A stretch of DNA of 64,000 bases from Lingula anatina. Its lineage: Eukaryota; Animalia; Brachiopoda. The notes under the pieces are model-generated. The model saw only the letters and a list, made by a program, of their open reading frames with translations. It was not told the origin of the DNA and made no database searches. Below, one piece after another: positions 10,185 through 60,790 of the stretch. Position numbers and translations under genes: made by a program. Each line of letters starts with the position of its first letter. Positions within the stretch are counted from its first letter, which is position 1. The DNA lies in NCBI GenBank assembly GCA_051362555.1, contig CM120640.1, positions 29,965,967 through 30,029,966 on the forward strand, written 5' to 3'.

Positions 10185-13100
10185 AGACTGCCATGATGCT
10201 GTCAGACTTGGTTGTCCAGCCATGTAGCTGGCAGATAGGGTTGTCCTGCTATTCTGATGTCAGTCTCCATTGTCCTTCCATGTTCTGGCAGTCTCAGTTG
10301 TCCTGACATGTTGGCAGTCTCGGTTGTCCAGTCATGATGCTGGCAGACTTGGTTGTCCTGCCAGAGTTCTCGCAGATTCGACTGTCCTTTCATTCTGATG
10401 GCAGGTTTGGCTCTCCTGCCATGAAACTGGCAGTGTATGTGGTCCTGCCATGTAGCTGGAATACATTGGTTGTCCTGCCAGAGTTCTCGCAGATTCGGCT
10501 GTCCTGTCATTCTGATGGCAGGTTCGGCTGTCCTGCCATGAAACTGGCAGTCTCAGTTGTCTTGCCATGTAGCTGGCAGACATTGGTTGTCCTGCCATCG
10601 TTCTCGCAGATTCGGCTGTCCTGTCATTCTGATGGCAGGTTCAGCTGACCTGCCATGAAACTGGCAGTCTACGTGGTCCTGCCATGTTCTGGCAGTCTCG
10701 GTTGTCCTGCCATGTTCTGGCAGTCTCAGTTGTCTTGCCATGTAGCTGGCAGACATTGGTTGTCCTGCCAGCGTTCTCTCAGATTCGGCTGTCCTGTCAT
10801 TCTGATGGCTGGTTCGGCTGACCTACCATGAAACTGGCAGTCTACTTGGTCCTGCCATGTTCTGGCAGTCTCGGTTGTCCTGCCATGCTCTGGCAGTCTC
10901 AGTTGTCTTGCCATGTAGCTGGCAGACATTGGTCGTCCTGCCAGCGTTCTCGCAGATTCGGCTGTCCTGTCATTCTGATGGCAGGTTCGGCTGTCCTGCT
11001 ATGAAACTGGCAGTCTACTTGGTCCTGCCATGTTCTGGCAGTCTCGGTTGTCCTGCCATGTTCTGGCAGTCTCGGTTGTCTTGCCATGTAGCTGGCAGAC
11101 ATCGGTTGTCCTGCCAGCGTTCTCGCAGATTCGGCTGTCCTGTCATTTTGATGGCAGGTTCGGCTGACCTGCCATGAAACTGGCAGTCTACGTGGTCCTG
11201 CCATGTTCTGGCAGTCTCGGTTGTCCTGCCATGTTCTGGCAGTCTCAGTTGTCTTGCCATGTAGCTGGCAGACATTGGTTGTCCTGCCAGCGTTCTCGCA
11301 GATTCGGCTGTCCTGTCCTACTGATGGCAGGTTCGGCTGACCTGCCATGAAACTGGCAGTCTCAGTTGTCTTGCCATGTAGCCGGCAGACATTGGTTGTC
11401 CTGCCAGCGTTCTTGCAGATTCGGCTGTCCTGTCATTTTGATGGCAGGTTCGGCTGTCCTGCCATGAAACTGGCAGTCTCGGTTGTCCTGCCATGTTCTG
11501 GCAGTCTCGGTTGTCCTGCCATGTTCTGGCAGTCTCAGTTGTCTTGCCATGTAGCTGGCAGACATTGGTTGTCCTGCCAGCATTCTCGCAGATTCGGCTG
11601 TCCTGTCATTCTGATGGCAGGTTCGGCTGACCTGCCATGAAACTGGCAGTCTCAGTTGTCTTGCCATGTTCTGGCAGTCTCAGTTGTCTTGCCATGTAGC
11701 TGGCAGACATTGGTTGTCCTGCCAGCGTTCTCGCAGATTCGGTTGTCCTGTCATTCTGATGGCAGGCTCGGCTGACCTGCCATGAAACTGGCAGTCTACG
11801 TGGTCCTGCCATGTTCTGGCAGTCTCGGTTGTCCTGCCATGTTCTGGCAGTCTCAGTTGTCTTGCCATGTAGCTGGCAGACATTGGTTGTCCTGCCAGAG
11901 TTCTCGCAGATTCGGCTGTCCTGTCATTCTGATGGCAGGTTCAGCTGACCTGCCATGAAACTGGCAGTCTGTGTGGTCCTGCCATGTTCTGGCAGTCTCG
12001 GTTGTCCTGCCATGTTCTGACAGTCTCGGTTGTCCTGCCATGTTCTGGCAGTCTCAGTTGTCTTGCCATGTAGCTGGCAGACATTGGTTGTCCTGCCAGC
12101 GTTCTTGCAGATTCGGCTGTCCTGTCATTCTGATGGCAGGTTCAGCTGACCTGCCATGAAACTGGCAGTCTGTGTGGTCCTGCCATGTTCTGGCAGTCTC
12201 GGTTGTCCTGCCATGTTCTGGCAGTCTCAGTTGTCTTGCCATGTAGCTGGCAGACATTGGTTGTCCTGCCAGCGTTCTCGCAGATTCGGCTGTCCTGTCA
12301 TTCTGATGGCAGGTTCGGCTGACCTGCCATGAAACTGGCAGTCTACGTGGTCCTGCCATGTTCTGGCAGTCTCGGTTGTCCTGCCATGTTCTGGCAGTCT
12401 CAGTTGTCTTGCCATGTAGCTGGCAGACATTGGTTGTCCTGCCAGCGTTCTCGCAGATTCGGCTGTCCTGTCATTCTGATGGCAGGTTCGGCTGACCTGC
12501 CATGAAACTGGCAGTCTACGTGGTCCTGCCATGTTCTGGCAGTCTCGGTTGTCCTGCCATGTTCTGGCAGTCTCAGTTGTCTTGCCATGTAGCTGGCAGA
12601 CATTGGTTGTCCTGCCAGCGTTCTCGCAGATTCGGCTGTCCTGTCATTCTGATGGCAGGTTCGGCTGACCTGCCATGAAACTGGCAGTCTACGTGGTCCT
12701 GCCATGTTCTGGCAGTCTCGGTTGTCCTGCCATGTTCTGGCAGTCTCAGTTGTCTTGCCATGTAGCTGGCAGACATTGGTTGTCCTGCCAGCGTTCTCGC
12801 AGATTCGGCTGTCCTGTCATTCTGATGGCAGGTTCGGCTGACCTGCCATGAAACTGGCAGTCTACGTGGTCCTGCCATGTTCTGGCAGTCTCGGTTGTCC
12901 TGCCATGTTCTGGCAGTCTCAGTTGTCTTGCCATGTAGCTGGCAGACATTGGTTGTCCTGCCAGCGTTCTCGCAGATTCGGCTGTCCTGTCATTCTGATG
13001 GCAGGTTCGGCTGACCTGCCATGAAACTGGCAGTCTGTGTGGTCCTGCCATGTTCTGGCAGTCTCGGTTGTCCTGCCATGTTCTGGCAGTCTCAGTTGTC

Positions 13101-14752
13101 TTGCCATGTAGCTGGCAGACATTGGTTGTCCTGCCAGCGTTCTCGCAGATTCGGCTGTCCTGTCATTCTGATGGCAGGTTCGGCTGACCTGCCATGAAAC
13201 TGGCAGTCTACGTGGTCCTGCCATGTTCTGGCAGTCTCGGTTGTCCTGCCATGTTCTGGCAGTCTCAGTTGTCTTGCCATGTAGCTGGCAGACATTGGTT
13301 GTCCTGCCAGCGTTCTCGCAGATTCGGCTGTCCTGTCATTCTGATGGCAGGTTCGGCTGACCTGCCATGAAACTGGCAGTCTACGTGGTCCTGCCATGTT
13401 CTGGCAGTCTCAGTTGTCTTGCCATGTAGCTGGCAGACATTGGTTGTCCTGCCAGCGTTCTCGCAGATTCGGCTGTCCTGTCATTCTGATGGCAGGTTCG
13501 GCTGACCTGCCATGAAACTGGCAGTCTACGTGGTCCTGCCATGTTCTGGCAGTCTCAGTTGTCTTGCCATGTAGCTGGCAGACATTGGTTGTCCTGCCAG
13601 CGTTCTGGCAGATTCGGCTGTCCTGTCATTCTGATGGCAGGTTCGGCTGACCTGCCATGAAACTGGCAGTCTACGTGGTCCTGCCATGTTCTGGCAGTCT
13701 CAGTTGTCTTGCCATGAAGCTGGCAGACATTGGTTGTCCTGCCAGCGTTCTCGCAGATTCGGCTGTCCTGTCATTCCGATGGCAGGTTCGGCTGACCTGC
13801 CATGAAACTGGCAGTCTACGTGGTCCTGCCATGACACTGGCAGTCTCGGTTGTCCTGCCATGACATTGGCAGTCCCGGTTGTCCTGCTATGACATTGGCA
13901 GTCTCGGTTGTCCTGCCATGACACTGGCAGTCTCGGTTGTCCTGCCATGACATTGGCAGTCCCGGTTGTCCTGCCATGACATTGGCAGTCCCGGTTGTCC
14001 TGCCATGACACTGGCAGTCCCGGTTGTCCTGCCATGACACTGGCAGTCCCGGTTGTCCTGCCATGACACTGGCAGTCTCGGTTGTCCTGCCATGACACTG
14101 GCAGTCTCGGTTGTCCTGCCATGACACTGGCAGTCTTGGTTGTCCTGCCATGACATTGGCAGTCCCGGTTGTTCTGCCATGACACTGGCAGTCTTGGTTG
14201 TCCTGCCATGACACTGGCAGTCCCGGTTGTCCTGCCATGACATTGGCAGTCCCGGTTGTCCTGCCATGACACTGGCAGTCTTGGTTGTCCTGCCATGACA
14301 CTGGCAGTCTTGGTTGTCCTGCCATGACATTGGCAGTTCCGGTCGTCCTGCCATAACATTGGCAGTCCCGGTCGTCCTGCCATGACATTGGCAGTCTCGG
14401 TCGTCCTGCCATGACATTGGCAGTCTCGGTCGTCCTGCCATGTTCTGGCAGTCTAGGTGGTCCTGCCATGTTCTGGCAGTCTTGGTGGTCCTGCCATGTT
14501 CTGGCAGTCTAGGTGGTCCTGCCATGTTCTGGCAGTCTAGGTGGTCCTGCCATGTTCTGGCAGTCTTGGTGGTCCTGCCATGTTCTGGCAGTCTAGGTGG
14601 TCCTGCCATGTTCTGGCAGTCTTGGTGGTCCTGCCATGTTCTGGCAGTCTTGATGGTCCTGCTATGTTCTGGCAGTCTCGGCTGTCCTGCAATGATGATG
14701 GCAGTATTTGCGGTTCTCCTATGAAGCCGTTAGTCTCGGCTGCCCTGCCATG
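10185..14752. repeat. GC-rich 28/29-bp minisatellite with 173-bp (6-mer) and 145-bp (5-mer) higher-order repeats
   Basis: Base unit TGGCAGTCTCGGTTGTCCTGCCATGTTC. The ORF track recurs every 173 bp (12054, 12227, 12400 ... 13092). Monomeric zones follow after about 13,830. Confidence 0.97.
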
Positions 14753-15777
14753 ATGCTATGTTAGGTCCAATCCTATTCTCATTATTATACATGTAACCTG
14801 TAGACATACTTTAACATGGTCTGAACATTGTCATTTTTGCAGCTGACATACAAGTTTATGTTACATGCAAGAGCAACCAGTCTGCAACAATCACTCCTAT
14901 CGAGGATTGTCTTGCAGAGTTTTCAAGTAATGGATGAATGTGAACATGTTGGCTTTAAATGATACTAAGGTCGAGTTGATATGGTTTACATCTACCCTCG
15001 CCCAGGGCCGCAGTTATTATTGTGGACATATTTGCTGAGGCGACCCTGTTATGTTTGGCCAGGAGGAAACAATTAATTCTGCACATGGGCAGAAGGCTTT
15101 GTACTTGCTCTGCAGTACCTCAATGAGAGCTGGGCTTTGCGCCAATATAATTAACACTTGTCATGCAACCTGCCTTGTCTTGTCTGTCTGCTAAAGGGCT
15201 GTTTTATTGTCACGAATGAGCAATTCACTATCTTGTTTACTGTCAAGGGGACTTTGCAGGGACTTGCTAAGTGACTGTGCCTGAGTAGTTATGCAAACAT
15301 TTACAAGCCATGTAATCATCCTTGAGATTTCAGTACAGGGTGACATCAGACCAAAATGATTGTCTACTTATCTAGAGACGTATCTGCGAATATCTGTGGA
15401 AAATCAATCTGTTGCTCTCAGTGTTCATTCTAGGATGCGCCCTTGCGTCATTGGCGCAGAAAAAATTAGGTTGACGCAATACGTAGTGTGAGCTGCGCCA
15501 ACAAAATTCAAGAGAATTAACAGCGACGCATTTTTGTGTTCTAAATGCGCCCTCCAATTTGGCAAATTCACGACCGAAGTTTGATTGTTTACTCGACATC
15601 TCTTGACATCAAGATCTTATGTTAGACGTAATGAAGATATTCTTTGCTCGTCGCAGTTTTTAACAAGTATCTTAATTTATGCAAATCAGTGGCGATCGCC
15701 CCTCCTTTCTTGAATCCCTGATAGGCTGAGATTAATTGTCCATGTAAATCAATTGATCAACCCGTACATTGTACATG

Positions 15778-16212
15778 ATGGCGGAGAAGAAGCAAGTGTT
15801 ATTTTAAGTTTTTTTAAGAAAGTCAATCCCAAAGATCACCCTAAAACGGATCAGAATAGTAGCGACGGAGACAATGATCATACACAGCAGACATTTCCAG
15901 CGGAGAAGAGAGCTAAAGTAGATGTATGTGCTGCTGTCACGACTTCTGATACCGCGTCAACTAGCAATGCAAGGTCATTCCAAAAAAAGTGGAGAGATAC
16001 TTACAAGTGGCTTGTATACGACAATAACGCAAACTTGATGTATTGCAGCTTATGTGTTGAAAAAAAGAAGGACAATATATTTTTTCAAGGGACTAATAAC
16101 TTTCGAACCAGTACCCTTATGCGCCATGAGACATCTGCTGACCTCAAGCTTGCCATACAAGAAACGTCGGAATCAGCTCAAGCTAAACAGGCTTTTTGCA
16201 GAGCTTTAGAAG
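15778..16212 (+). pseudogene. hAT transposase exon 1 (TTF-type zinc finger, ZNF862-like)
   Basis: RSFQKKWRDTYKWL...MYCSLC...FFQGTNNFRTSTLMRHETS. Phase-1 donor GAAG|GTAAGA at 16,212/16,213. The probable ATGGCG start at 15,778 is frameshifted relative to the domain. Confidence 0.85.
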
Positions 16213-16868
16213 GTAAGATATTATTTTTTGTCAATATTTATTTGTAACACGGAGCATGAGCCATCAAAGTGACACTAGTGTATGTTGTTGATTATCGTGA
16301 CGGTCCCGGACCCACGTGTTGTAGTTATATTTGTGTAGGTTGAAGAACTCTAGAAAGTGCATTCTGGGATATCGCAATGCTGAACAACTATGTAAACAAT
16401 GCGTTTGCTGTGTAGCATTGACACAGGGCATTATGCTCATGTTTTTTCCCTGAACATTATTTTTTGTATATATATATATATAGATAAAATTTTCACATTC
16501 ATTTTTATGTACAGACACAGATGTGTCTGTACATATAGCTGTCACCTGCGTCTGTCGTCGCCGTCGCCGTGCACTCAGCGATAACACGATAAGTGGAATA
16601 CCGTTTTACATTTTGTATTCAAATTTACAGAACTGATGAATATTCATAATACACAGGTCAAGTTCGAAAATCAGCATGATCGGGTCACTTTTAGGGAATT
16701 TATGCTGTTTTTTCACTTTTTTCAGCATATATGCAGCACCGATAACATGATAAGTGAAAAACCATTTTACCTTTTGGCTTGAATCTTACAGACTGATGAA
16801 TATTCATAATACGCAGGTCAAGTTCGAAAATCAGCATGATTGGGTCATTTTTAGGGAATTTATGCTGT

Positions 16869-17476
16869 TTTTATGTATTGCCATCACCTGCGTCTGTCGT
16901 CGCCGATGCTGTCGCTGTGCACTTTCCTTGTAAACATGATAAGTGGAGGGCAGTTTTACTTTTTATGTACAGACACAGATGTGTCTGTACATATTGCCAT
17001 CACCTGCGTCTGTCGTTGCCGATGCCGTGCACTTTCATTGTAAACACGATAAGTGGAAGGCAGTTTTACTTTTTGGCTGTATATTTACAGAGCTGGTGAA
17101 TATTCATAAAATGCAGGTCAAGTTTGAAAAATCAGCATGATTGGGCCATTATTGTAGAAGTTATGCTGTTTTTTCACTTTTCAGTATATATACAACACTG
17201 TAAACACATTTCAAGGAAAACCGATAGGCCTGTTGTCATAAAACACACAGGAGTAATTGATCTTACCAAAACGCAGGTCAAGTTCGAAAATTGGCATGAT
17301 CGGGGCCACTATTTAGTAGTTATGCTTTTTTTTTCACTTTTCAGCATATTTAAAATTTGATGCTGAATTTGCAGTTTAACATAATGTATTTTTGCATCAG
17401 AATTGACAGTAGCCTATTTTGTGCAAAGTTATTTCCTGTTTTTTGTCTGTACATTTGACAGCTTTGCTGCCTTGTT
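16869..17476 (+). mobile_element. HINE element B1 (internally deleted, duplicated 5' head); left arm of the ZER1-carrying composite
   Basis: Heads at about 16,869 and 16,961. 3' end TGTCTGTACATTTGACAGCTTTGCTGCCTTGTT at 17,444-17,476. The last ~135 bp match the B2 end (25,075-25,209). Confidence 0.8.
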
Positions 17477-17487
17477 TATCTTTACAG

Positions 17488-17535
17488 ACATTTCCAGACA
17501 AATCTGGTCTTCCGAGAAACATGATGGGATTGATA
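17488..17535 (+). CDS. ZER1: Protein zer-1 homolog fragment, exon A (48 bp, phase 0-0)
   Basis: TTTACAG| TFPDKSGLPRNMMGLI |GTAAGT. Resembles the ZER1 segment FPEKQELHRNMLGLL as I recall it. Confidence 0.85.
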
Positions 17536-17742
17536 GTAAGTGGAGTGGATTTAAACTTTATGGCGGAGGATAATACATATATAGTTATTGCAGTTTTAAT
17601 ATTCTAGTTATATGTGATAAATGTATCAATTGCTGTATAATTGTAAACAGTGGATTAGGAAATTATATAGAGTATATATTTGTATGATTAACTTATTTAA
17701 ATAAAGTGGAGTAAAGTTAGTATGTTTTAATTGTTCTTTCAG

Positions 17743-17810
17743 GGTAATGTTGCTGAAGTTCACTCTCTTCGCCCAAAACTGATGCAGTATGAATATGTGT
17801 CAGTGTTCAA
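17743..17810 (+). CDS. ZER1: Protein zer-1 homolog fragment, exon B (68 bp, phase 0-2)
   Basis: TTCTTTCAG| GNVAEVHSLRPKLMQYEYVSVF(K) |GTAAGT. In frame with exons A and C. Confidence 0.88.
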
Positions 17811-18150
17811 GTAAGTAAGAAACAGATTCAACTTAAAATATTGAAGGAAAAAACGGTGCATTTGGCATTTCAAAGGCTCACACTAGGATTTCACATTTTT
17901 ATTTTGAACTTGGGGAGCAGTTTTATGCTATAGATTTATACATACACGACTTATCTAGCAAATGTTTCTTGATATATGAGTACAATATATTTTGCATATT
18001 TGTGTAAATGTTTTTTTTCTTTCTTTCTTTTTTTTTTTTTTTTTTTTTTTTTGAGAATTGCTTGCTGGCATATTTTCTGAACTACAAAAATCACCATTGC
18101 CCATTGATTCAGAAAAGATCTTAGTCAACACCATATTTGACTTGTTTCAG

Positions 18151-18339
18151 AGCTCTCCTGGATTCTGACAGTGATGGTATTGAAGTAAGTTACAATGCAG
18201 CAGGTGTACTGTCCCACATGGCATCAGATGGAGTGGAGGCGTGGACCTTGACGGATCTTCCCCGTAGCCAGGTGCTCCGAGCAATGGTGAATGCCATTCA
18301 GAGGTGGGATCTGAACACAAACAGGAACATCAATTACAG
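18151..18339 (+). CDS. ZER1: Protein zer-1 homolog fragment, exon C (189 bp, phase 2-2)
   Basis: TGTTTCAG| ALLDSDSDGIEVSYNAAGVLSHMASDGVEAW...AIQRWDLNTNRNINYR |GTGAGG. DGIEVSYNAxGVLSH and RNINYR are motifs of the ZER1/ZYG11 C-terminal ARM region. Confidence 0.92.
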
Positions 18340-18889
18340 GTGAGGGGACCAAGCTCAGTTTATTAAGAAATGACAGGGATGTGTAAATATGAAACTGGTA
18401 TCATTAGATCTGTAAACATTCATGTTGAAAAATATTCATATAAGTTAGATTCATAGAACAGCTGGGGGGGGGGGGGGGGGGAGGAGATGCATTAACATCA
18501 GTTGTCCTCACCTCACATTACTCACAGCTTCAATCTTAAACAATTCTTGATGGGATTTAGGTGAACTGACAACAGGATTCTTAAAAATAGGCGTGCATCA
18601 AATTTTCATTAAAACTTTCTTTTGTTGGTATGTGAATATTTTAAAAATGTTTTCACACAGTAGATGAGGAAGAAAATACCTAAGTGGTAAATGAAAAAGA
18701 AAAAAGAAAAACTTATGAATTTGAATGATAAAACACTGAAACATGTTAGCTACGTGAAAAGAGGTACAGTTACTAACTGTTTTTATGTACAGACACATCT
18801 GTTGCCATCACCTGCGTCTGTCGTCGCCGATGTCGATGCCGGCGCCGTGCACTTTCCTTGTAAACACGATAAGTGGAGGACAGTTTTTT

Positions 18890-21538
18890 TTTATGTACAG
18901 ACACAGATGTGTCTGTACATATAGCCATCATCTGCGTCTGTCGTCGCCGTCGCCGTCGTCGCCGTCGCCGTCGTCGCCGTCGCCGTGCACTTTTACCGAT
19001 AACACGATAAGTGGAAAACCATTTTGCCTTTTGATTTGAAACTTGCAGAACTGATGAATATTCATAATACGCAGGTCAAGTTCGAAAATCAGCATGATCG
19101 GGTCACTCTTAGGGAATTTATGCTGTTTTTTCACTTTTTCAGCATATATGCAGCACCGATAACACGATAAGTGGAAAACCATTTTACCTTTTGGCTTGAA
19201 ACTTACAGAACTGATGAAAATTCTTAATACGCAGGTCAAGTTCGAAAATCAGCATGATTGGGCCATTTTTAGGGAATTTATGCTGTTTTTTCACTTTTTT
19301 CAGCATATATGCAGCACCGATAACACGATAAGTGGAAAACCATTTTACCTTTTGGCTTGAAACTTACAGAACTGATGAATATTCATAATACGCAGGTCAA
19401 GTTCGAAAAACAGCATGATTGGGTCATTTTTTAGGGAATTTATGCTGTTTTTTCACTTTTTTCAGCATATATGCAGCACCGATAACACGATAAGTGGAAA
19501 ACCATTTTACCTTTTGGCTTGAAACTTACAGAACTGATGAATATTTATAATACGCAGGTCAAGTTTGAAAATCAGCTTTATCGGGTCATTTTTATGGAAG
19601 TTATGCTATTTTTTCATTTTTTTAGCATATATGCAACACTGATACACGATAAGTGAAAAACTGTTTTACCTTTTGGCTTGAAACTTACAGAACTGATGAA
19701 TATTCATATTACATAGGCAAAGTTTGAAAATCAGCGTGATCGGACCAATTTTATGGAAGTTATGCTGTTTTTTTCACTTTTTTCAGCATGTATGCAATAC
19801 CGCTAACGCATTTCAAGAAAAATCAATTGGCCAATTGTCTTGAAATTTACAGGGGAGATCAGTCTTACTGAAATACAGATGGAGTTTGAAAATGGTTCAG
19901 TTTTGGTGAAGTTATGCCTTTTTTTGTATATAAGTGTTTTTTTTTTCCTTTGATTTAATTCTTAGGCATGTTAAGAATCTCCTCTGTGAACTAATTAAAT
20001 ATGTAAAGGTGTTCTTTTGACATTTTCTGCATCTTAACAATATTGTTAGTTGATTATATAAAAAAGATGGTTAACCTGTTATTGTGTATTATATAACAAA
20101 GTGTCAAAAATGGAAATAATAATAAACTCATATCTTTACAGTTTGTCAGATTCAATCATTCACCATGTTCAGAATCTCAGAATGGAGCAAAATGGCAATT
20201 TAAAATTGTTCTATTGATATTTTTCCTATGACAGCAATTTTCTTAGTTGTTCATTTAAAAATGACAGTAAATTGATTATTTTGTTATATGAAAAAAAGAT
20301 GTTGAAAATGGAAAGAAAATCAATTCAATACAGTTATCTTTTGTTTACATTTTAGCATTTTGAAAGTGTGACTCTGAACTTCCATGGCCTTGAAGACATT
20401 TCCATGTCACATTTTCTGTAAATCCATGATACTTTTATTTTATTATTAAAAATTAATGGTCATTATATTATATTGCATAAAAGTTGAAGAAAACCCTAAT
20501 TTTGGAAATGGCTGCCGGAATGACCATTAAGGAAAAACCATGTTACTTATGATACTCAAACTTACTGAAAAGTTTCGTAAGACTGATGTGCAGTTTGTGT
20601 TGGAAAATCAGTGTGATTGTTTTCCGTTTTGGAAGCAATGTAGCTCTATAGAGTGCTATATGGGGCTACTGTGTATGGATGGTGGTAATTGCCCCTTGGG
20701 ATAGTCACAAGCTAAATTCAGAGCTATAAAATCATTTGCCTAATTGATTTCCAAGTGCCCATTAAATAAGATTACATAAAACACACGCTGAGACTTCCCA
20801 GTAAAGTCCCATAGGTTAAGCTCTCTTAACTGTGTCACATAATTAGGAATCTATGATAATTATGCAGGTAAATGTTGTTTAATATTGCAAATAAGTTAAC
20901 AAAACAAAACAAAAAAATAGATGAATAACAGTGTCTTATTATCCTCAAACACATTGGGGTTATTCATATCATGTTATTACAGCAAGATTAAAAGTTTGAA
21001 TAGTAGCTTTAATGGGATATTTTTGTGTTTTCTTTTTAATTTTTTTTTTCAAACACTGGCATTTTCAGCTCCCATCCACCTGAAGCTCTTCACATTTTCT
21101 GTATTTCCACATAAGCAGTTGCATTGGTTTTTATGTCTTTAAACATTATGTAATATTATTTTATGCACTGTCATCATTATTTAGATATTGGGATTTTCAT
21201 TATGTGAATTTGGTCCTGAAACTGTAATCTTATTGCAGGGGTGGATTGAGGCCATCTTCTGGGTCTTTCAGATTTTAAAGTTCACATTGATGGGCATCTC
21301 TTTTTTCTGTTGGAAGACCATCAAAAATGTAGGATGGATCAACAAAGATAATTTGGAATACTGTCAGAAAATATCTCTGGATCAGCTCCTGTTATTGACG
21401 ATGTCACCTGTTGTGCATGATTAAATTTCAGCGTTGATTGACAGTGCTATTGTAGGCATCAAAATTGACAAAATGAACCATTTTCTGCATTTTTATTTTG
21501 TGTTTTTGTCTGTACATTTGACAGCTTTGCTGCCTTGT
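18890..21538 (+). mobile_element. HINE element A2 (full-length copy) nested in B2
   Basis: Complete 5' inverted repeat, (GTCGCC)n, five ~160-bp repeats (19,001, 19,161, 19,322 ...), body colinear with 25,725-27,529, and 3' hairpin plus CTTGT, inserted in a T-run. Confidence 0.87.
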
Positions 21539-21918
21539 TTTTTTTTTTGGCTTTATATTTACAGAGCTGATGAATATTCATAAAATGCAGGTCAAGTTCG
21601 AAAATCAGCATGATCTGGCCATTATTGTAGAAGTTATGCTGTTTTTTCACTTTTCAGCATATATGCAACCCTGTAAACACATTTTAAGGAAAACCATTAG
21701 GCTTGTTGTCATGAAACTCACAGGAATGGTCAATCTTACTAAAACGCAGGTTGAGTTCGAAAATCAGCATAATCGGGGCATTATTTTTAAAGTTATGCTG
21801 TTTTTTCATATTTCCTCAGATTCAACTCTTAGGCATGTTAACAGTCTCATTATTGAACTAATAAGATACGTAAAAGTGTTTGGTTGACATTTCCTGCATC
21901 TTTACAATATTATTAGTT

Positions 21919-24007
21919 GTACCACCAGCGTAGGCGCTGGCGGTACACATGGTTTTTGTCCCGATCCGTATATTACGCCGGCTCCTGCGGCTCCACCGCC
22001 AAGTCACCCTTACCTCTTCTCCTCCTAGACTACTAGGGCCTGCGTACCCATCTCTTGGATTTAGGTCACCTATAATCTCAACTCGTTCCACGTAAAATTT
22101 AGGCTTTGTCGGTATTGGGGTCTAGGTGTGGCACTCATTGCAATGCACCCTTGTCTAAACATGGTAAAATTAAATGCTAATTATCTACCCTACGGAAGGA
22201 ATTATGGGAAAAATTTCTACAGACGGCTTTCAAAAAGTCATATGTGTAGATTTCAAATATGCCCTTGGATTTGACCTTTGACCTTTATTTCAAGGTCAAA
22301 CGGGCCAAAATTTTCAAAAAAAAACAATTTTTTTACGAAAAAAATATTATTTGCCCTGTTATTCAGACACCACACAGACTTAACCAATAATATTATTGGA
22401 AAGTGTTACCCTTCAGGTTATCTTTCATCTCCGTGAATTTGGGGTCAATCGGTGCATTTTCACGGGAGTAGCGGCCATAAGATACCGAAACTGAAAACTG
22501 TCTCTAATTTGGGAACCGTTAACGCTAGAGGCCCATTCTTTTTTGCATTTTGTAGAGCATGTAAAGCCCAACACTGGAAGTGGTCTCCGTTTTTTTGTAT
22601 TCCATACGGTTTTCGAGTTACGCTGTATCAAAAAGTACATATGGGTGGTGAAAGCAAAATGTGCAGTACGGTTATGGATAATAAATTTTGAACTCCGGAA
22701 AAATAAAACATAAGGCTTGGCGAGGCAGACAACCTGTGGTCAAAAATGACATTATTTCATCAAATTTGAACATCTGGAACTTCAGAGCACCTCCCATTTC
22801 AAGAATTTTGACCAAAATGACCTTTTCTTTATTTAAATTAATTTTTTCTGTACAAAATTTATGGCACATTATTGTAACTCCAAAATTATAACATTTAGTC
22901 CCTTATATCTCCAAAACTGGCAGAGATAGGTCCATAGTTACTATTGAAGTTGAATAGGAAATCATATACTGGCAATCTAAATGCACCCTGAGCTTCAGAG
23001 ATAACTTGACACTAACCTCTTCACCATTAGCCTATCTTCATCGTGTCAAGTTACCTCTGACCACATTCGATTGCCTCCGCCGCCCGCCAATCAAATTTAA
23101 AGCCCGCACTCAATGACTCATTGAACAATCTAGCCAATGCACGCGAACGAGTCAAAGCGCGCTTTGTTCAAATCCGGACCAATCAAAGATAAGGCTGAAT
23201 ATCAGGGACTTGCCGTAACCTGTGGGCAGCACGCAAAATACATCATCCCTCAGTAGATAATTATGCAGGGCATCAAACTGCTCTGGTTTCAATTATGATA
23301 TACTAGGAAGTCATATACTGGCAATCTAAATGTGACCTTAAAATTGACCTTTGACCTACTTTTCATCAGGAATTGAACTTTGCAAATTTCCGTTCCCTTT
23401 TATCTCCAAAACTGGCAGAGATAGGTCCACAGTTACTATTGAACTTGAATATGAAGTCATTAGAGGCAATTTACTGTGACCTTAAAATTGACCTTTGACA
23501 TACTTTTAACCATGAACTTAACTTTGCAAATTTTGGTTCCCTTTTATTTCTAAAACTGACAAGATAGGCCCATAGTTACTGTTGAATTTGAATAGGAAGT
23601 CATATACTGGCAATCTAAGTGTGACCTTGAAATTTACGTTTGACCTACTTTTTATCATGAAATGAAGTTTACAAATTTTGGTTCCCTTTTATCTCCAAAA
23701 CTGGCAGAGATAGGTCCACAGTTGCTATTGAACTTGAATAGGAAGTCAAATACTGGAAATTTACTGTGACCTTGAAATTGACCTTTGACCTACCTTACTA
23801 TGAACTGAACTTTGATTGTACCATTTTTAGTTATATATTTTTTTTTGCATATTTTGAGAATTCTTGTTGATTGCATTTTTTACAGCTTGTCAAGCACAAG
23901 ACTGGTGGTGGTGTCCCTTTTTTGTGTGTGTGGGGGTCTATACGATCGCGCTTACCCCAGCTGGTGGTACAATATTCGGAGGCGGTATCGCCTCTCTGAT
24001 CCTCTAG
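21919..24007 (+). mobile_element. HINE element C (different family) nested in B2
   Basis: 5' TTGTACCACCAGC-GTAGGC-GCTGGCGGTACA inverted repeat, 3' subterminal GCTGGTGGTACAA, GAGGCG-GTAT-CGCCTC hairpin and CTAGT end, with ~145-bp internal repeats. The empty site TTAGTTGATTATAT is seen at about 20,046 and 25,977. Confidence 0.87.
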
Positions 24008-27000
24008 TTGATTATATAAAAATGGTGGTAAACTTGTTATCGTGTATTGTGTAATAAAGTTTCAAAAATGGAAATAAACTCATATCATTGTAGTTTGTCA
24101 GATTCAATCATTCACTATGTTCAGAATCTCAGAATGGAGGAAATTGGACATTTAACACTGCTGTATTGATATTTTTCCCATCTCGTCAATTTTCTTAGTT
24201 GATCGTATAAAAATGGCAGTAACCTGTTAATTTTGTTTTATGTTAAAAAATTGTTAAAAATGGGAAAAAAAAACATTTCAGAACAGTGCTGTCTTGTTTA
24301 CATTTTGCTATTTTCAAGTTGTGACTTTGAAGTTCCATGGGCCTGAAGACCTTTGCTAGTCACATTTTCTGAATATCCATGATACTAATATTTTATTATT
24401 AAAAATTGATGGTCATTATGCTGTTTAACATTATGTAATATTGCATCAAAATTTGAAAAAAAACCTATTTTGGGCACTGCTCCAATGATGACCATTTAAG
24501 AAAAACCATGTCACTTACTGTTCTCAAACTTATAGGAAAGAAACATGGGACTAAAATACAGCTTCAGTAGGCAATGCAATCTGTTTGGTAATTCTTACTG
24601 CCAGTTAAACAGTTTTTTTGTGAAAATTTAATTTTTCACTTATTGTTTTATGTTAAAAAATTGTTAAAATGGGGAAAAAAAAACATTTCAGAACAGTGCT
24701 GTCTTGTTTACATTTTGCCATTTTCAAGGTGTGACTTGGAAGTTCCACGGGCTTGAAGACCCATGCTAGTCACATTTTCTGAAAATCCATGATACGTATA
24801 TTTTATTATTAAAAATTGACGGTCATTATGCTGTTAACCATTATGTAATTTGGCATCAGAATATTGAAGAAAACACAATTTTGGGTGCTGCTGCCATGAT
24901 GACCATTATGGGAAAACCATGTTACTTATGATTGCCAAACTTTCAAAATAGAAATACAGGACTAAAATGTAGCCTGAGTTGGAAAAGCAGTCTAATTGGC
25001 TTATTTTTCTGGAAGTTATACATTTTCAATGTGTGAACTTTTTACACATTTTACTTACGTTGGTATTACCTGTTGAGCATAATTAAAATTTGATGTTGAA
25101 TTTGCAGTTTGATATAATGTACTTTTGCATCAGAATTGACAGTAGCCTATTTTGTGCATAGTTATTTCCTGTTTTTTGTCTGTACATTTGACAGCTTTGC
25201 TGCCTTGTTTCACTTTTTTTCAGCATATATACAACACTGATAACACGATAAGTGGAAAACCGTTTTACCTTTTGGCTTGAAACTTACAGAACTGACGAAT
25301 ATTCATTATATGCAGGTCAAGTTCGAAAATCAGCATGATCGGGCCATTTTCATGGAAGTAATGCTGTTTTTTTTTACTTTTTTCAGCATTTTTATAACAC
25401 CAATAACACGATAAGTGAAAAAACGTTTTACCTTTTGGCTTGAAACTTACGAAACTGATGAATATTCATAATACACAGGTCAGGTTTGAAAATCAGCCTG
25501 ATCGGGCTATTTTTATAAAAGTTATGCTATTTTTTCATTTTTTTTTTCAGCATATATGCAGCACCGATAACACGATAAGTGAAAAACCATTTTACCTTTT
25601 GGCTTGAAACTTACAAAACTGATGATTATTCATAATACGTAGGTCAAGTTTGAAAATCAGCGTGATCGGACCAATTTTATGGAAGTTATGCTGTTTTTTT
25701 ACTTTTTTCAGCATATATGCAATATCGATAACACATTTCAAGGAAAATCAATTGGCCAATTGTCATGAAATTCACAGGGCTGATCAGTCTTACTGAAATA
25801 CAGATGAAGTTAGAAAATAAGCTCGATTGGTTAGTTTTAGTAAAGTAATGCCTTTTTTTGTATATAAGTGTTTTTTTCCTCAGATTTAATTCTTAGTCAT
25901 GCTAACAATCTCATTTGTGAACTAATTAAATATGTAAAGGTGTTCTTTTGACATTTTCTGCATCTAAACAATATTGTTAGTTGATTATATAAAAATGATG
26001 GTAAACCTGTTATTGTGTGTTGTGTAGTAAAGTGTCTAAAAATGGAAATAAACTCATATCTTTACAGTTTGTAAGATTCAATCATTCACCATGTTCAGAA
26101 TCTCAGAATGGAGCAAACTGGACATTTAAAGATGTTCTATTGATATTTTTCCTATGTCAACAATTTTCTTAGTTGTTCATTTAAAAATGACAGTAAATTG
26201 ATTATTTTGATTTATGTAAAGAAATGTGTTGAAAGTGGAAAGAAAATCATTTCAGTACAGTTATCTCTTGTTTACATTTTGGCATTTTGAGGGTGTGACT
26301 CTGAACTCCCATGGCCTTGAAGACCTTTCCATGTCACATTTTCTGAATATCCATGATACTTTTATTCTATTATTAAAAATTGATGGTCATTATGTTATAT
26401 TGCATAAAAGTTGAAGAAAACCCTATTTTGGACATTGCTGCTGGAATGTCCATTAAGGAAAAACCATGTTACTTATGATATTCAAACTTACTGAAAAGTT
26501 TCATAAGACTGAAGTGCAGTTTATGTTGGAAAATCATTGTGATTGTTTTCTGTTTTGGAAGCAATGCAGCTCTATAGAGTGCTGTATGGGGCTACTGTTT
26601 ATGGGTGGTGGTAATTGTCCCTTGGGGTAGTCACAAGCTAAATTCAGAGCTATAAAATCACTTGCCTAATTAATTTCCAAGTGCCCATTGAATAAGTTTA
26701 CATAAAACACACGTTGAGATTTCCCAATAAAGTCCCATAGGTTAAGCTCTCTTAACTGTGCCACATAATTAGGAATTAGTGATAATTATGCAGGTAAATA
26801 TTGTTTAATATTGCAAATAAGTTTACAAAAGAAAAAATTTGTGTAACGCCAACATTAATGCTATAGATGAATAACAGTGCCTTATTATCCTCATACACAT
26901 TGGGGTTATTCATATCATGTTAATACAGCAAGATTAAAAGTTTAAATAGCAGCTTTATTGGAATATTTTTGTTGTGTTTTCTTTTCATTTTTTTTTTCAA

Positions 27001-27705
27001 ACACTGGCATTTTCAGCTCCCATATGCATCCACCTGAAGCTCTTCACATTTTCTGTATTTCCACATAAGCAGTTGCATTGATTTTTATGTCTTTAAACAT
27101 TATGTAATATTATTTTATGCACTGTCATCATTTTTCAAATATTGGGATTTTCATTATGTGAATTTGAACTCTCATGGTCCTGAAACTGTAATCTTATTGC
27201 AGGGGAGGATTGAGGCCGTCTTCTGGGTCTTTCAGATGACAGTCAGATTTTAAAGTTCACATTGATGGGTATCTGTTTTTTCTGTTGGAAGACCATCAAA
27301 AATGGAGGAGGGATCAACAAAGTTAATTTGGAATACTGTCAGAAAATACCTCTGGATCTGCTCCTGTTATTGACCATGTTACCTGTTGTGCATGATTAAA
27401 ATTCAGTGTTGATTGACAGTGCTTTTATAGGCATTATTTATTATTGCATCAAAATTGACAAAATGACCCATTTTCTGCATTTTTATTTTCTGTTTTTGTC
27501 CGTACATTTGACAGCTTTGCTGCCTTGTTCATAATTTTAGTGTGTGGAGAGATTTGGTCTCTGTTCATGGTGATTAAGGGAAAAATAAAGTAAGGGATTG
27601 TGTGCTGGAGTAATGTTTGCTGGTACCTTCAACACTATTAAACATTTTATGCAGGTTATAATGTCCAAATTCATATTTAAAGTAATGTTTATAAAACATT
27701 TTTAG

Positions 27706-29442
27706 GTAAAGATGGAGCAATCATGTCAGCAATGAAGTCCGTGTACTGGCTAGTTCAAGAGGGCATAGCAATTCGAAAGTTTGGAAGCCTAATAGAGTTG
27801 CTACGGCACCTGGATTGCCCCAACCTTTCATACTTAGACCAAGGAGGCAATGCAAAGTATAATTCTGATACAGCAGGGTGGGATATGGTTGCTGCTATTG
27901 CTGCCACAGTTGAGGAAGACTTGCTTCAGAAAATGAAGTCTTCACCATTTCTAACAATACTAGCAGACGAGAGCACTGATATAACAGTAACAAAAAAGTT
28001 GGTTATATGTGTCAGACTTTTAGATGATAACTTTGTTCCTTCTACCCACTTTGTAGCCGACATAAATGTCACAGATGGCAAGGGTGCCACAGTTGCAGCA
28101 GTTATCAAATATTAAATCAAAGGAGATCCCCCTTAGTAAGATATATGGTTTTGGTTCTGATGGTGCAGCGAGCATGACCAGCATGGGAAATGGAGTTGCA
28201 GGCAGATTGCTTGCTGAAAATCCTGCGATGGTTCACATACACTGTATTGCCCACAGATTGGCTTTATGTACTAGCCAGGCAGCAAATGCTATAGACTATA
28301 TGAAGGACTATCAATCAACTATTACCAGTATATTTTATTACTTTAAAGCATCATCTGTCAGGGTAAACAGAATCACAGCTATTCAGGAGCTGCTGGATGA
28401 ACCTATTTTAAAGTACAATGAAGTCCATGAGGTTCGATGGTTGTCCTACTACAAAGCAATAGAAACAATCTACAGGACTTATGGGTCATTAGTGTCCTAT
28501 ATGTCTGAAATGGGGGCAAGTGATGCCAAGGCAAAAGGTTTTGCAAAGAAACTTTCACAATTCAGTTGTTTTTGTCACCCATATGCTTTTGTCCATCCTC
28601 AGCATTGTCACAGAGCTATGATTACTCTTCCAAAAGAAAGATCTTGACCCAGCCTTGGTGGATGTTAATGTGAAGCATGCATTGAGAGAACTGCAAAAGC
28701 ACAGGGACCATGCCACAAGTAGTGAAGGGTTGTCTGGTAAACCTGGCAGCTACATCGAGGAATTTCTCCTGAAGGTGGGAACAGGTCAACGTAATTTCTT
28801 CAGGGACCACCTTCTGACTTGTTGTGCTAATTATGAAAAACAATGCAAGGCAATTCAGTGTCAATTTATTGACAATCTCATTTAACAACATAAATGCCAG
28901 ATTTCCCCAGGATCACTTGGATATGGTAACAGCATTTGGGTATTTGAGCATGAGACCACTAAGCTTTTTGTCTGAGTCAGAAAGAGAAAATTGGGGTGAA
29001 GTCCCTATACAGAAACTTGCTAGCCATTATGGTAACATTATTGAACATCATGGGTCCAAATCAGTGCCAATAATAATTGAAAAACAAGGTATGAGTGAAT
29101 GGTCTAAACTCAAAGAATTGGTTTTCAGAATGGGGTATGCGAGAGATGCCACCTGCAAACTGTGGAGCATTATCAAAACTCACCATAGTGAAGACTTTCC
29201 CAATTTGTTGAAGCTGGCTGCAATCTCCCTCATCCTTCCGATACACACGTCAGATTGTGAGAGAACATTAAGTTCTCAAAACTACATCAAAAAACCACAG
29301 AACAAACAGACTGTCTGAAACAAGACTTCAGCAGTGCTTGGTCATTATGATAGAAGGAAAGGCAATTGGGGACTTTGACTTTAAGAGTGCCTTAGATATT
29401 TGGAAAAAGGAAAAGAAATGTAGAATTTATAACAAGCAGTGA
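27706..29442 (+). pseudogene. hAT transposase exon 2 (DDE core plus dimerisation region), several frameshifts
   Basis: Acceptor TTTTTAG| joins exon 1 in frame (ALE-G-KDGAIMSAMK). Motifs ILADESTD, FGSDGAASM, HCIAHRLAL, VRWLS and HTSDCERTLS. The protein is split across ORFs 27723, 28066, 28655 and 28824. Confidence 0.93.
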
Positions 29443-30032
29443 GCTGTACACTTTGTAGGTATCAAAAAAGGGACAGATTCTCTTAGTGATTTTTATGTTT
29501 GTGATATCATTCAATCTGGTAGCTTTTTATGTGCCATCTCACCTTATATAATTAATTAAATTTCATGGATTTTTTCATAAATTGAAGCCAAAAATGGCTT
29601 TAAAATCTTGTTTTAGTAAGAATTTGATTATTGGTGAAAGAATCATCAACATATTTCAGTGTAATCTTATATTTGTAAACAAAATTTCGAGCGTGTAGTC
29701 TCTTATTTTAGAAAGTTGGGATAACCTATTGAATGTGAACCTGCAAGCCAAAATATTATTTTTATGATATAAAGTATTTTTCATCTCTGAATATTAAAAC
29801 CACAGCAGTAAAACACGTGTTACATATTATTATTTAAAGATTTGAAAAAGGGCCCACTTCAAAATGTAATGACCCACTTCTTTTTATGATGGGGGCCCTT
29901 TGTCCCATATTGAAACATTCCTAGAATGAACACTGTGCCCTGGTAGAGGATAGTTTACATCAAGGTTCAAAGCAAAATGCAGCAAATGCCAACATTTGCA
30001 TAGATGTTCTTATAAAACCATCTAGTTCTGTA

Positions 30033-30350
30033 AAAGATCTGGTAGTTACCCTCAATGGAAATGGCACTGTGTGGGGAAGCATGTATCTGAAGTGTGTAAA
30101 TCAGCATCTTATGCACTTGGAAAAGTAAGAAAAGTGTTTTATAACAGAACCACTGAAAAATTAGTAAATCTATTTAAAAAAATCATCAAGATAAGATTAC
30201 TGCAAGTCTCCTCTTTGGTACATGTGACTATCAGACAAGTTATTCAAAACTCGGCTGCAAAACTGGTTTGTCAAATAAAGTGCAATAGTGCACATCATAT
30301 AACTCCCATTCTGAAAGGATTACAATGGCTACCATTGAAGCCATCCAGCT
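30033..30350 (+). mobile_element. CR1/L2-clade LINE ORF2 C-terminal fragment, decayed
   Basis: KHVSEVCKSASYALG...TTEKLV...QVIQNSAAKLV...HITPILKGLQWLPL, a typical post-RT signature. Confidence 0.8.
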
Positions 30351-30485
30351 AGCAGTCTCGGTTGTCCCGCTATGTTCTGGAAGTTTCAGTTGTCCTGCCA
30401 TGATGCTGGCAGTCACACTTGTCTTGCCATGTTTTGGCAGTCTCGGTTAACCTGCCATGCTGCTTGCAGTCTTGGTTATCCTGTG
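30351..30485. repeat. Short diverged array of the same 28/29-bp unit as 10.2-14.75 kb
   Basis: GCAGTCTCGGTTGTCCCGCTATGTTCTGG...TTGTCCTGCCATGATGCTGGCAGTC, about 4-5 units. Confidence 0.85.
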
Positions 30486-38117: not shown

Positions 38118-38675
38118 TGCCCCTATTTCACACAGACCACGAATCGCCAGGAGTTGACAAATTTCAGGATTCGTGGTTGAATCGTAAACAGTAATGAGTT
38201 CGTGAAGTTATTAACAGATTCGTATATATTCGTAATCAGTTCTTGCAATTCTTGACCAACAAGAATTCGTGGCAAAAACTTTGATGCCCCTATTTCACAC
38301 AGACCACGAATCCCACGAATCGCCAGGAATTTACAAATTTCAGGATTCGTGGTTGAATCGTAATCAGTTCGTGAAGTTCTTAACAGATTCGAATATAATC
38401 GTAGTCAGTTCTTGCAATTCTTGATCAAACGGGAATTCGTGGCAAAAATGTTGAGCTGTTCAAAATTTTGGCCACGATTCCAAAAAAATCATAGTGAATT
38501 CTTGACAATATTCCAGCCGAATCACACAAATATTCGTAACACTATCGCACCTGTATCGTAACTGAATCGTAGAGCGTGTCGAATTAGGCCAGAAAATTTG
38601 CAAAATCTCACGAATCCTCACGAATCCTGAAATTTGTCGATTCGTGGGATTCGTGGTCTGTGTGAAATAGGGGCA
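38118..38675. mobile_element. PIF/Harbinger-type MITE with duplicated left end
   Basis: TIR TGCCCCTATTTCACACAGACCACGAATC and GATTCGTGGTCTGTGTGAAATAGGGGCA, with TAA on both flanks. A second left end lies at about 38,285. Confidence 0.85.
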
Positions 38676-39021
38676 TAAATACAGTTAAACAAACCAAGGG
38701 ATCAATGTGCGGATCTCGTTACAGCACGCTTATTTAATGGTTATATCATACAGCAACAAGGAGACAAATTACCTCTAAATCAGAAAGCTCCATGAAACGC
38801 GCCGTGCATCATTTTTCAGACTTTGTTGTAGCACGTATTAATAAACACATTTACCCCTGGAAATTAACTTAAAATGTGTAAAGGACCGATTTCACACACA
38901 CACATACATAAACATAAAAATAAATAAATAAATAAATCACATAATATAACATAAGACCAAAACATTTAGAAATTGCACGCATAATACCCCGACAAATATA
39001 GTTAATTTTTTTCAAATATCC

Positions 39022-59500: not shown

Positions 59501-60790
59501 TAAAGCTTATCAGTTGACTGTGTGTAATTGAAGTGTAATTGTCCTCTGAAAAAAATATATACCCATTCAAGACTTCTCCTTACTACCAATACCATATGCA
59601 GATTCCTCCTTACAATCGGTTTCTGGAAGCGGGTTTAGCACACCATTTGACAATGTCCTAAAGCTTGCCACATGCCATCTATTGTACACATGGATGAGAC
59701 AAACCATTGCTCTTGCTGTTGTCTATCACTGCCTGTTTTTTTTTTCACAGGAAATAGCCATGACCAGACAGGAAGAATCAGTTCATCAAAAAACCCACCA
59801 CGCTGTATGGAAAAGGTCACCTGGAAAAAGAACAATATATTTGAAATAAGTGAAAATTAAATTTTTAAAATTGACAAATTTTACAGATTAAAATAGTTCA
59901 ACATTAATAACTTTGATAAACTTAAGCTTAACAGTTGACTGTCTCTAAAATAAAAAGGATATTTTCGGAACTTTCCATGACTTCAAATAGTTAAACGTTA
60001 ATAATTTTGACAAATCAAGTCCAATATCTGTGAAATTTGGAGACATGATGCATAACAACAATAAAAATCTGTTGACTGTGTCTCATGAAAAATATTTTTT
60101 CAGAGCATATAAATTTGAGAAAACTTAAAATTATATTGAGAAGTCTGCCAAATGCAGTGCCTTAATATAGTTAAATGTTAATAATTTTGACAAATCTAGT
60201 CAAATATTTGTGAAATTTGTAAGATTCATGCTTAACATCAATAAAAATCTGTGAAAAGCAAATCAGTTGACAAAGTCCAATGAAAAAGCTTTTTTTAGAG
60301 CATATAAATTTGAGAAAACTGAAAATAACATTGAGAAGTCAGCCAAATTCAGTGCCTTAATATAGTTAAACATTAATAATTTTGACAAATCTAGTCCAAT
60401 ATCTGCAAATATCTGCAATATCTGGACAGATGATGTATAACAACAATAAAAATCTGTGATAACCTCGTCAGTTGACTGTTTCTCATGAAAGTTTTTTTTC
60501 TGACAATATAATTTAGAAAACTGAATGTTTCATTGAAAAGACTGCCAAAGTCCATGACTTCAAATAGTTAAATGTTAAGAATTTTGACAAATCTAGTCCA
60601 ATGTTTGTGAAATTTGTACAAATGATGCTGAAAATCAATAAAAATCTGTGATAAGCTCATTAGTTGACTGGGTCCAATGAAAAAGATTTTAAGGAAAATA
60701 AATTTGAGAAAACTGAAAATAACACTGAAAAGACTGCCAAATTTCATGGTATAAAATAGTTAAACATTAATAATTTTGACAATTTTGTTT
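44600..60790. repeat. Complex satellite: ~194-bp monomers plus periodic spacer, with a 5,182-bp super-repeat (2,465 + 2,717 bp)
   Basis: Monomer starts at about 44,620, 44,814, 45,008 and 45,203. Spacer ORFs at 45,786, 48,251, 50,968, 53,433, 56,150 and 59,635 give exact 5,182-bp offsets. Confidence 0.97.

What the first reader, a model, noticed from the sequence alone, without database searches (positions are those of the whole stretch)
16869..25209. Composite rolling-circle unit: two same-family HINE copies bracketing a captured three-exon ZER1 segment
Seen: B1 ends (hairpin plus CTTGTT) about 11 nt before the ZER1 exon A start. Then come 1.3 kb of non-repeat DNA with exons A-C and their introns, and then B2 starts. 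The B1-ZER1-B2 block interrupts A1 cleanly within a T-run with no TSD. I found no flanking ZER1 exons, such as the expected SFEPI-type next exon, elsewhere in the window. Established: Helitron-type elements capture host DNA with introns retained, and 3'-end bypass is a proposed mechanism; ZER1 is a CRL2 substrate receptor for N-terminal glycine degrons. Inference: two HINEs in neighbouring ZER1 introns were mobilised together (5' end of B1, read-through, 3' end of B2), like a composite transposon. Any gene segment between two co-oriented HINEs would then be mobile. This is the best candidate for an undescribed system here.
Basis: partly seen in the sequence, partly recalled or inferred. Interest (0 to 1): 0.88.

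Follow-up and report, generated by a model that had tools for sequence, protein, structure and literature searches.

The report
ZER1 fragment between rolling-circle transposons
A partial, three-exon copy of the ZER1 gene lies between two rolling-circle transposon ends, away from the working gene, and was likely copied out by one neighbouring element at a spot that mimics the element's own end, which would be an undescribed twist on a known kind of gene capture.

Summary
The anatomy is real. Three in-frame ZER1 exons with introns (17478-18779) sit between Helentron-type HINE ends, inside another HINE, inside a hAT transposon intron; the best protein hit is Lingula anatina ZER1. It is a duplicate: RNA reads splice exon A to an upstream exon absent from the window and lack two amino-acid changes of the window copy. 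One donor-type contig does run into the downstream HINE. New: the left breakpoint matches the HINE 5' end at 13 of 16 letters, in head-to-tail register with the HINE 3' end (background 2 of 108,410 positions). Best reading (0.42): one donor HINE plus its upstream flank, bounded by this look-alike end, moved into a resident HINE and gave a HINE-cargo-HINE look. Two-HINE read-through from an unsampled haplotype (0.33) is the main rival and is already described in bat Helitrons. No sign that the unit spread. Not a new system; a useful test case for how Helentrons start and stop.

The parts
15419..29935 (+). Decayed hAT/ZNF862-like transposon that hosts the whole nest in its intron (about 16213-27705, borders inferred from splice consensus)
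   Evidence: 17-bp perfect terminal inverted repeats; zf-C17orf113 E 1e-14 left of the nest, hAT dimerisation E 2e-4 right of it; borders
16502..16867 (+). HINE A1, 5' part
   Evidence: T-run, 5' palindrome, microsatellite, 1.8 units of the 161-bp repeat; 94% to A2
16868..16959 (+). B-type 5' stub (B0), palindrome deleted; likely the 5' end of the resident B element
   Evidence: alignment and break letters
16960..17477 (+). B1, complete short HINE (5' subTIR and palindrome, 3' subTIR, small hairpin)
   Evidence: sharp 3' boundary at 17476-17477 in about 145-200 contigs a run (table 7)
17475..17490 (+). Look-alike of the HINE 5' end, made by the ZER1 splice acceptor and the first codon of exon A; coincides with the left breakpoint
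   Evidence: 13 of 16 letters, 8-letter subTIR core exact; 2 of 108,410 background positions score as high
17478..18779 (+). Duplicated ZER1 segment with introns
17488..17535 (+). ZER1 exon A; Leu to Pro at 17513
17743..17810 (+). ZER1 exon B; Tyr to Ser at 17765
18151..18339 (+). ZER1 exon C
   Evidence: 98% to P0001; PF22964 E 1e-23
18780..18887 (+). B-type 5' stub (B2); possibly present at the donor
   Evidence: donor-type contig X4 record 29 runs to 18829
18888..21539 (+). HINE A2, complete, in the T-run that ends the B2 stub
21540..25209 (+). Rest of a long B element, interrupted by element C
   Evidence: 88% to the B1 body, 94% to the B1 3' end
21917..24002 (.). Element C, a HINE-like element of another family (13-bp subterminal inverted repeat, 3' hairpin, 145-bp repeats)
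25210..27529 (+). HINE A1, 3' part
   Evidence: 93% to A2 over about 2.2 kb; register

Best explanation
This is a partial duplicate of ZER1, apart from the expressed gene, that was likely copied out by a single HINE in the intron after exon C, with a look-alike of the HINE 5' end at the exon A acceptor likely serving as the second boundary. Shown: the copy, the donor elsewhere, no HINE upstream at the donor in the two runs that show that flank, and the look-alike at the breakpoint. Inferred steps: (1) a Helentron transposase acting in trans treated the look-alike as an element end, either starting there or, if copying runs from the hairpin end, stopping there after passing the true end; (2) the product, probably a circle in which a HINE 3' end is joined head to tail to the look-alike, entered a resident B element inside A1, by recombination between the ~90-bp B stubs or by insertion at the T-run behind the stub; (3) this left HINE-cargo-HINE with a B stub on each side, though only one flank came from the donor. 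A later, separate B1 insertion at the junction T-run gives the same map. The copy is likely dead weight: no promoter or flanking exons, and its only two private coding changes both alter amino acids.
For: Donor flank: a contig covering exon A has 112 unrelated letters before 17478 in X1, and one with the donor allele has 305 before 17475 in X10; the 30 letters shown are alike between the two runs and unlike the HINE 3' end. Downstream: X4 record 29 (590 nt) carries 18283C like RNA run X12 (8 of 8) and X10, leaves the window at 18363 where both X10 contigs leave it (18362), and runs unbroken 50 nt into B2. Look-alike: 13 of 16 letters; 2 of 108,410 positions, or 2 of 5,328 TTT starts, score as high; best other site in the segment 11. 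Spacing from the 3' end core to the subTIR core is 8 letters, as a join to a true five-T 5' end would give. Direct B stubs flank the block (93% alike). Joined ends and multiple 5' termini are reported for Helitron2-type FoHeli (PMC5148889); circle-then-recombination builds ISCR1-cargo-ISCR1 in bacteria (PMC7707992).
Against: The look-alike was noticed after the fact, and splice acceptors resemble this end anyway. HINEs might simply prefer to land just 5' of subTIR-like sites, which would also fit the two-HINE model; head-to-tail HINE pairs with 4-13 spacer letters occur in X2-X4. No exact head-to-tail join of two true ends is among the 14 joints listed. The look-alike has no palindrome. For the canonical Helitron Helraiser the left end is essential and capture is from the 3' flank (PMC4778049). 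Record 29 is one short-read contig and could be stitched through the stretch that the versions share near 18621-18712; X1 shows only one, window-type, contig across 18780, and X10 has no cover there. The stubs share at most 31 identical letters, thin for recombination. What follows the B stub at the donor was not seen.
Confidence: 0.42

Rival explanations
1. Two-HINE read-through. B1 once sat in the T-run before exon A on a donor haplotype that is now rare or lost. Copying began at its 5' end, passed its 3' end, crossed the exons and stopped at the next HINE 3' end (A2 at 21539, or B at 25209). The unit landed in a T-run.
For: Explains without a second event why a complete HINE abuts the breakpoint. 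The X10 donor has a T-run at that place. 3' bypass is shown for Helraiser and a composite case is reported in bats, where most parental loci (26 cases) had no Helitron left. The break letters fit a unit 16960-21539 set in the B0 T-run.
Against: No HINE upstream at the donor in 2 of 2 informative runs. The look-alike at the breakpoint must be chance or a targeting bias. No second copy of the unit is evident.
Confidence: 0.33
2. Repair-driven copying without transposase capture. A break in the resident B element's T-run was mended by copying from the ZER1 locus, entering by T-rich microhomology and leaving by homology with the donor's B element; B1 inserted later.
For: DINE-1/DNAREP1 lies at breakpoints of young Drosophila duplicates and ectopic recombination was proposed for them (PMC2211543). 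The left break is in T-rich sequence; B homology is on the right; the copy seems not amplified.
Against: Does not explain the look-alike kept whole and in terminal register; needs B1 to hit the junction afterwards.
Confidence: 0.18
3. These are the resident ZER1 exons with very long introns, or the nest is an assembly artefact.
For: Splice sites and frame are intact; X3 and X4 show only two versions over most of the segment.
Against: At least three versions in X1 at exon A and in X2 at exon C; RNA lacks the window alleles at 17513 (6 of 6 reads) and 17765 (8 of 8); donor flank differs. The exons lie inside a split HINE inside a hAT element with both ends. The 18780 junction is bridged in 4 of 4 runs.
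Confidence: 0.03

Closest known systems
HINE / DINE-1 non-autonomous Helentrons (PMC4067079; oyster Cg_HINE, PMC7492417)
   Same: 5' subTIR with inverted repeat, microsatellite, central tandem repeats, 3' subTIR and hairpin, T-run insertion, no target duplication, clustering.
   Different: Those authors found gene fragments in Culex and Phytophthora elements but none in mite HINEs; here a HINE-bounded intron-bearing fragment has a traceable donor flank.
Composite bat Helitron HelibatN539 and the end-bypass model (PMC4224331 section 15; Helraiser, PMC4778049)
   Same: Host gene segment with introns between co-oriented rolling-circle ends.
   Different: Canonical Helitrons (TC...CTRR ends). There both ends were found at the parental locus; here the upstream element was not, and the breakpoint is a look-alike of the 5' end.
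FoHeli Helitron2 elements of Fusarium (PMC5148889)
   Same: Asymmetric inverted repeats, short duplicated 5' termini, self-insertion near the 5' end, joined ends.
   Different: No case of flank capture at a look-alike end in the passages read.
DNAREP1-flanked young duplicates in Drosophila (PMC2211543)
   Same: Dispersed partial duplicates with HINE-type elements at one or both breakpoints, in some pairs only in one copy.
   Different: Mechanism left open there (recombination or mobilisation); many of those are expressed, whereas this copy shows no sign of function.
ISCR1 complex integrons (PMC7707992 passages) and IS26 pseudo-compound transposons (PMC11102541, abstract start only)
   Same: Works like the best model: one element plus flank forms a circle that enters beside a resident copy and leaves element-cargo-element.
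   Different: Bacterial, different enzymes and ends; an analogy, not membership.

Membership tests
HINE (non-autonomous Helentron) | 5' subTIR with nearby inverted repeat and matching 3' subTIR | tested here: met
   13-bp stem at the B1 5' end, -11.8 kcal/mol; complementary 3' copy at 17444, 21507, 25177, 27497
HINE (non-autonomous Helentron) | 3' stem-loop near the end | tested here: met
   Small 4-bp stem in the fold, weak (-3.0 for the whole 41 nt); same place in all four 3' ends
HINE (non-autonomous Helentron) | Microsatellite and central tandem repeats | tested here: met
   GTC/GCC microsatellite and 160-163-bp arrays
HINE (non-autonomous Helentron) | Insertion in T-runs without target duplication; many copies with sharp ends | tested here: met
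   Junctions; 48+97, 46+106, 56+110+33 and 48+110 contigs with unrelated flanks at 17476-17478 in X1-X4
HINE (non-autonomous Helentron) | Autonomous Rep-helicase-endonuclease partner with the same ends | not testable with these tools
   No genome held; the 3' end pattern found nothing in metagenome contigs
Composite (two-element) Helitron | Captured host DNA between co-oriented 5' and 3' element ends | tested here: met
Composite (two-element) Helitron | Upstream progenitor element at the parental locus | tested here: not met
   Absent in 2 of 2 runs that show the flank (X1, X10); X2-X4 uninformative, 386 loose-end rows not shown
Composite (two-element) Helitron | Downstream progenitor element at the parental locus | tested here: inconclusive
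   One donor-type contig enters B2 (X4 record 29); not seen in X1 or X10
Composite (two-element) Helitron | Further transposition as a unit (several copies, same ends) | tested here: inconclusive
   Only two or three versions a run, window type at depths like the others; contig depth is no copy number
Functional ZER1 gene | Full exon set, conserved residues, spliced transcript | tested here: not met
   About 100 of 825 residues; Pro where 0 of 60 scored homologues have it, 51 Leu (60 of 68 proteins matched the pattern); RNA reads carry other alleles, though those animals may lack the copy

The most novel reading that the evidence does not exclude
Helentron-type HINEs capture DNA on their 5' (subTIR-palindrome) side: the transposase accepts host look-alikes of the subTIR as an end, and AT-rich splice acceptors supply them. 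A single HINE then makes an element-plus-exons circle that re-enters beside any resident copy, giving pseudo-composite units as ISCR1 or IS26 do in bacteria. This would mean Helentron copying polarity or end use differs from canonical Helitrons, and that captures are biased to begin at exon starts.
Probability: 0.3. Interest if true: 0.72.

Novelty: new variant of a known kind. Interest (0 to 1): 0.45.

Why it matters
The cargo itself is probably a dead fragment. The value is mechanistic. DINE-1/HINE elements have long been tied to new gene duplicates with the route left open (PMC4067079, PMC2211543), and the experimental work I read on ends is for a canonical Helitron. Here the donor flank can be read, and the three models predict different donor sequences, so one long-read look decides. 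If look-alike ends are used, a genome-wide count of breakpoints would show which end of a Helentron starts copying, and would imply that any exon upstream of one HINE, not only between two, can move.

Tried and rejected
No RNA holder was listed for the stretch; this says nothing on expression. One search included HINE ends and its loose-end table was flooded; one search trimmed them and gave the donor flank. A downstream splice from exon C was not among the rows shown (4 rows not shown). X10 and the RNA runs have no cover at 18722-18796, which is no evidence on B2. Contig depths were not used as copy numbers. The Ala/Val difference from P0001 at 18234 was dropped as a copy-specific change: 2 of 2 X15 reads and an X4 donor-type contig have the window letter. 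A scan of metagenome contigs with the HINE 3' end found nothing. Three look-ups of earlier findings returned nothing. The cluster of P0001 holds no second named ZER1. The Replitron paper had none of six terms on Helentron polarity. Rejected: resident gene with giant introns; retrocopy (introns kept); a circle formed by microhomology at the two 8-letter cores (the left junction keeps donor letters 5' of the core).
Full report
Observation. Exon C matches Lingula anatina ZER1 (P0001, XP_013390971.1, 825 aa) at 98% and Pfam PF22964. tblastn with P0001 and two other homologues finds exons A, B and C only, residues 623-726; no other hit in the 64 kb is better than E 0.58. The exons are 17488-17535, 17743-17810 and 18151-18339, with AG/GT borders and no stop. 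The species is inferred from this hit; no genome is held.

The nest. From outside in: a decayed hAT-type transposon with perfect 17-bp terminal repeats at 15419 and 29935, a C17orf113-type zinc finger on the left and a hAT dimerisation region on the right; in its intron HINE A1 (16502-27529), split in a T-run and resuming in register; in that a B element; and in that the ZER1 block. The A and B elements have the HINE parts listed in PMC4067079 and PMC7492417 (passages): 5' subTIR with inverted repeat, microsatellite, 161-bp central repeats, 3' subTIR, small hairpin, T-run flanks. About 145-200 contigs a run leave the window at 17476-17478 into unrelated flanks, which marks a multi-copy element with a sharp end. 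The autonomous partner was not found or testable.

A different parse. In intact B1 the site reads T-run, AC, T-run, GGCT. The left stub keeps the AC; the piece at 21540 starts with T-run and GGCT; the stub at 18780-18887 ends in T without AC. So 21540-25209 joins the left stub without any change, and the inserted block may end at 21539 or 18887. This rests on two letters and is not firm. The same T-run was hit twice (B1 on the left, A2 on the right), so it is a favoured target.

It is a duplicate. RNA runs X12 and X15 (about 6 in 100 of each run read; 30 and 13 reads laid) join A to B and B to C at the predicted sites, and 4 X15 reads continue 5' of exon A into letters that encode the preceding residues of P0001; an 18-letter piece of these has no match in the window better than 4 mismatches. 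All RNA reads differ from the window at 17513 (6 of 6) and 17765 (8 of 8); both changes alter amino acids, and the first puts Pro where 51 of 60 scored homologues have Leu and none has Pro. These animals may lack the copy, so this shows a separate expressed gene, not silence of the copy. DNA contigs show at least three versions at exon A in X1 and at exon C in X2, two in X3 and X4. The junction at 18780 is bridged in 4 of 4 runs from 3 studies, one of which may be the assembly's source; the left junction is crossed in 3 of 4 but with 24-25 HINE letters, below the tool's bar of 31. X10 shows donor-type letters only.

The donor test. Upstream: of the seven runs laid, five are DNA contigs, and the flank was visible in two. 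In X1 a contig has 112 unrelated letters before 17478; in X10 a contig with the donor allele has 305 before 17475. The 30 letters shown resemble each other and not the HINE end. X2-X4 are uninformative (386 rows not shown). Downstream: X4 record 29 carries an allele shared with RNA and X10, leaves the window at the place where X10's contigs do, and then runs 50 letters into B2. It may be stitched across shared sequence, and X1 shows only a window-type contig there. So: upstream HINE not found, downstream HINE possible.

The look-alike end. The left breakpoint, 17475-17490, matches the first 16 letters of B1 at 13 places, with the 8-letter subTIR core exact. Outside the HINEs, 2 of 108,410 positions on both strands score as high, 2 of 5,328 among TTT starts; the exact core occurs 5 times. 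The core lies 8 letters after the conserved 3' end of B1, the spacing that a join to a true 5' end would give. The three T letters may belong to B1; X10's donor contig aligns from 17475, X1's from 17478. Against: it was seen after the fact, acceptors resemble this end, it has no palindrome, and no exact join of two true ends is among the 14 joints, though near-tandem pairs with 4-13 spacer letters are.

Mechanism. Best reading (0.42, inferred): one donor HINE and its upstream flank, bounded by the look-alike, were copied by a Helentron transposase, probably as a circle, and entered a resident B element, leaving stub, B1, ZER1, stub. If B1 sat behind the stub at the donor, the window is simply that circle opened at the stub. 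Rival (0.33): read-through from a B1 allele now rare or lost; it explains B1's place for free, and in bats 26 parental loci had no Helitron left (PMC4224331 section 15, read whole). Rival (0.18): repair copying helped by B homology (PMC2211543 passages). Resident gene or artefact: 0.03.

Known systems. Two-element composite capture is not new: HelibatN539 is a reported case, PMC4067079 proposes end bypass or composite transposition for HINE-linked duplicates (passages), and Helraiser shows 3' bypass with an essential left end (PMC4778049 passages). FoHeli elements show joined ends and doubled 5' termini, explained by self-insertion (PMC5148889 passages). HELIANO describes HLE2 ends and captured domains (PMC11417382 passages). 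ISCR1 forms cargo circles that recombine in (PMC7707992 passages); the IS26 parallel comes from a search listing with the start of an abstract (PMC11102541) and recall. I found no report of 5'-flank capture at a subTIR look-alike in the listings of searches or in the passages read; the bat paper's introduction does mention bypass of the 5' or 3' end in general. The library lacks most subscription papers, I read no paper whole and no supplements, so the supplementary figure on HelibatN539 and the HINE end tables were not seen.

Verdict. A real, apparently young and unamplified gene-fragment duplication tied to HINEs. The variant with a look-alike end is undescribed as far as my searches reach, is testable with one long-read look, and is about as likely as not to be wrong. 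Interest 0.45.

Noticed in passing
window 14993-29952: Outer element around the hAT copy, with imperfect 16-bp terminal inverted repeats and a 9-bp direct repeat on both sides (14984-14992, 29953-29961); Mutator-like by the 9-bp duplication (label recalled). The hAT's right end lies 17 bp inside it and shows no 8-bp duplication.
   Followed up: partly
window 21917-24002: Second HINE-like family (element C) with a 13-bp subterminal inverted repeat, a GC-rich 5' hairpin, 145-bp repeats and an end reading CTAG before TT.
   Followed up: partly
window 10188-14705 and 30348-30483: GC-rich 29-bp satellite with a 173-bp higher-order unit; a remnant lies beyond the transposon nest.
   Followed up: no
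window 44614-60782: 194-bp satellite array with near-identical (98-100%) blocks 5,182 bp apart; recent higher-order amplification or assembly repetition.
   Followed up: no
window 38281-38679: 45-bp inverted repeat pair, 96% complementary, 309 nt apart; MITE-like.
   Followed up: no
window 30026-30352: 108-aa frame that looks like the C-terminal part of a LINE reverse transcriptase (recalled); no Pfam hit at E 0.05.
   Followed up: partly
tables 5 and 5c (joints 17473-17477 to 18776-18780): Other loci carry these HINEs head to tail with only 4-13 letters between, in runs X2-X4.
   Followed up: no
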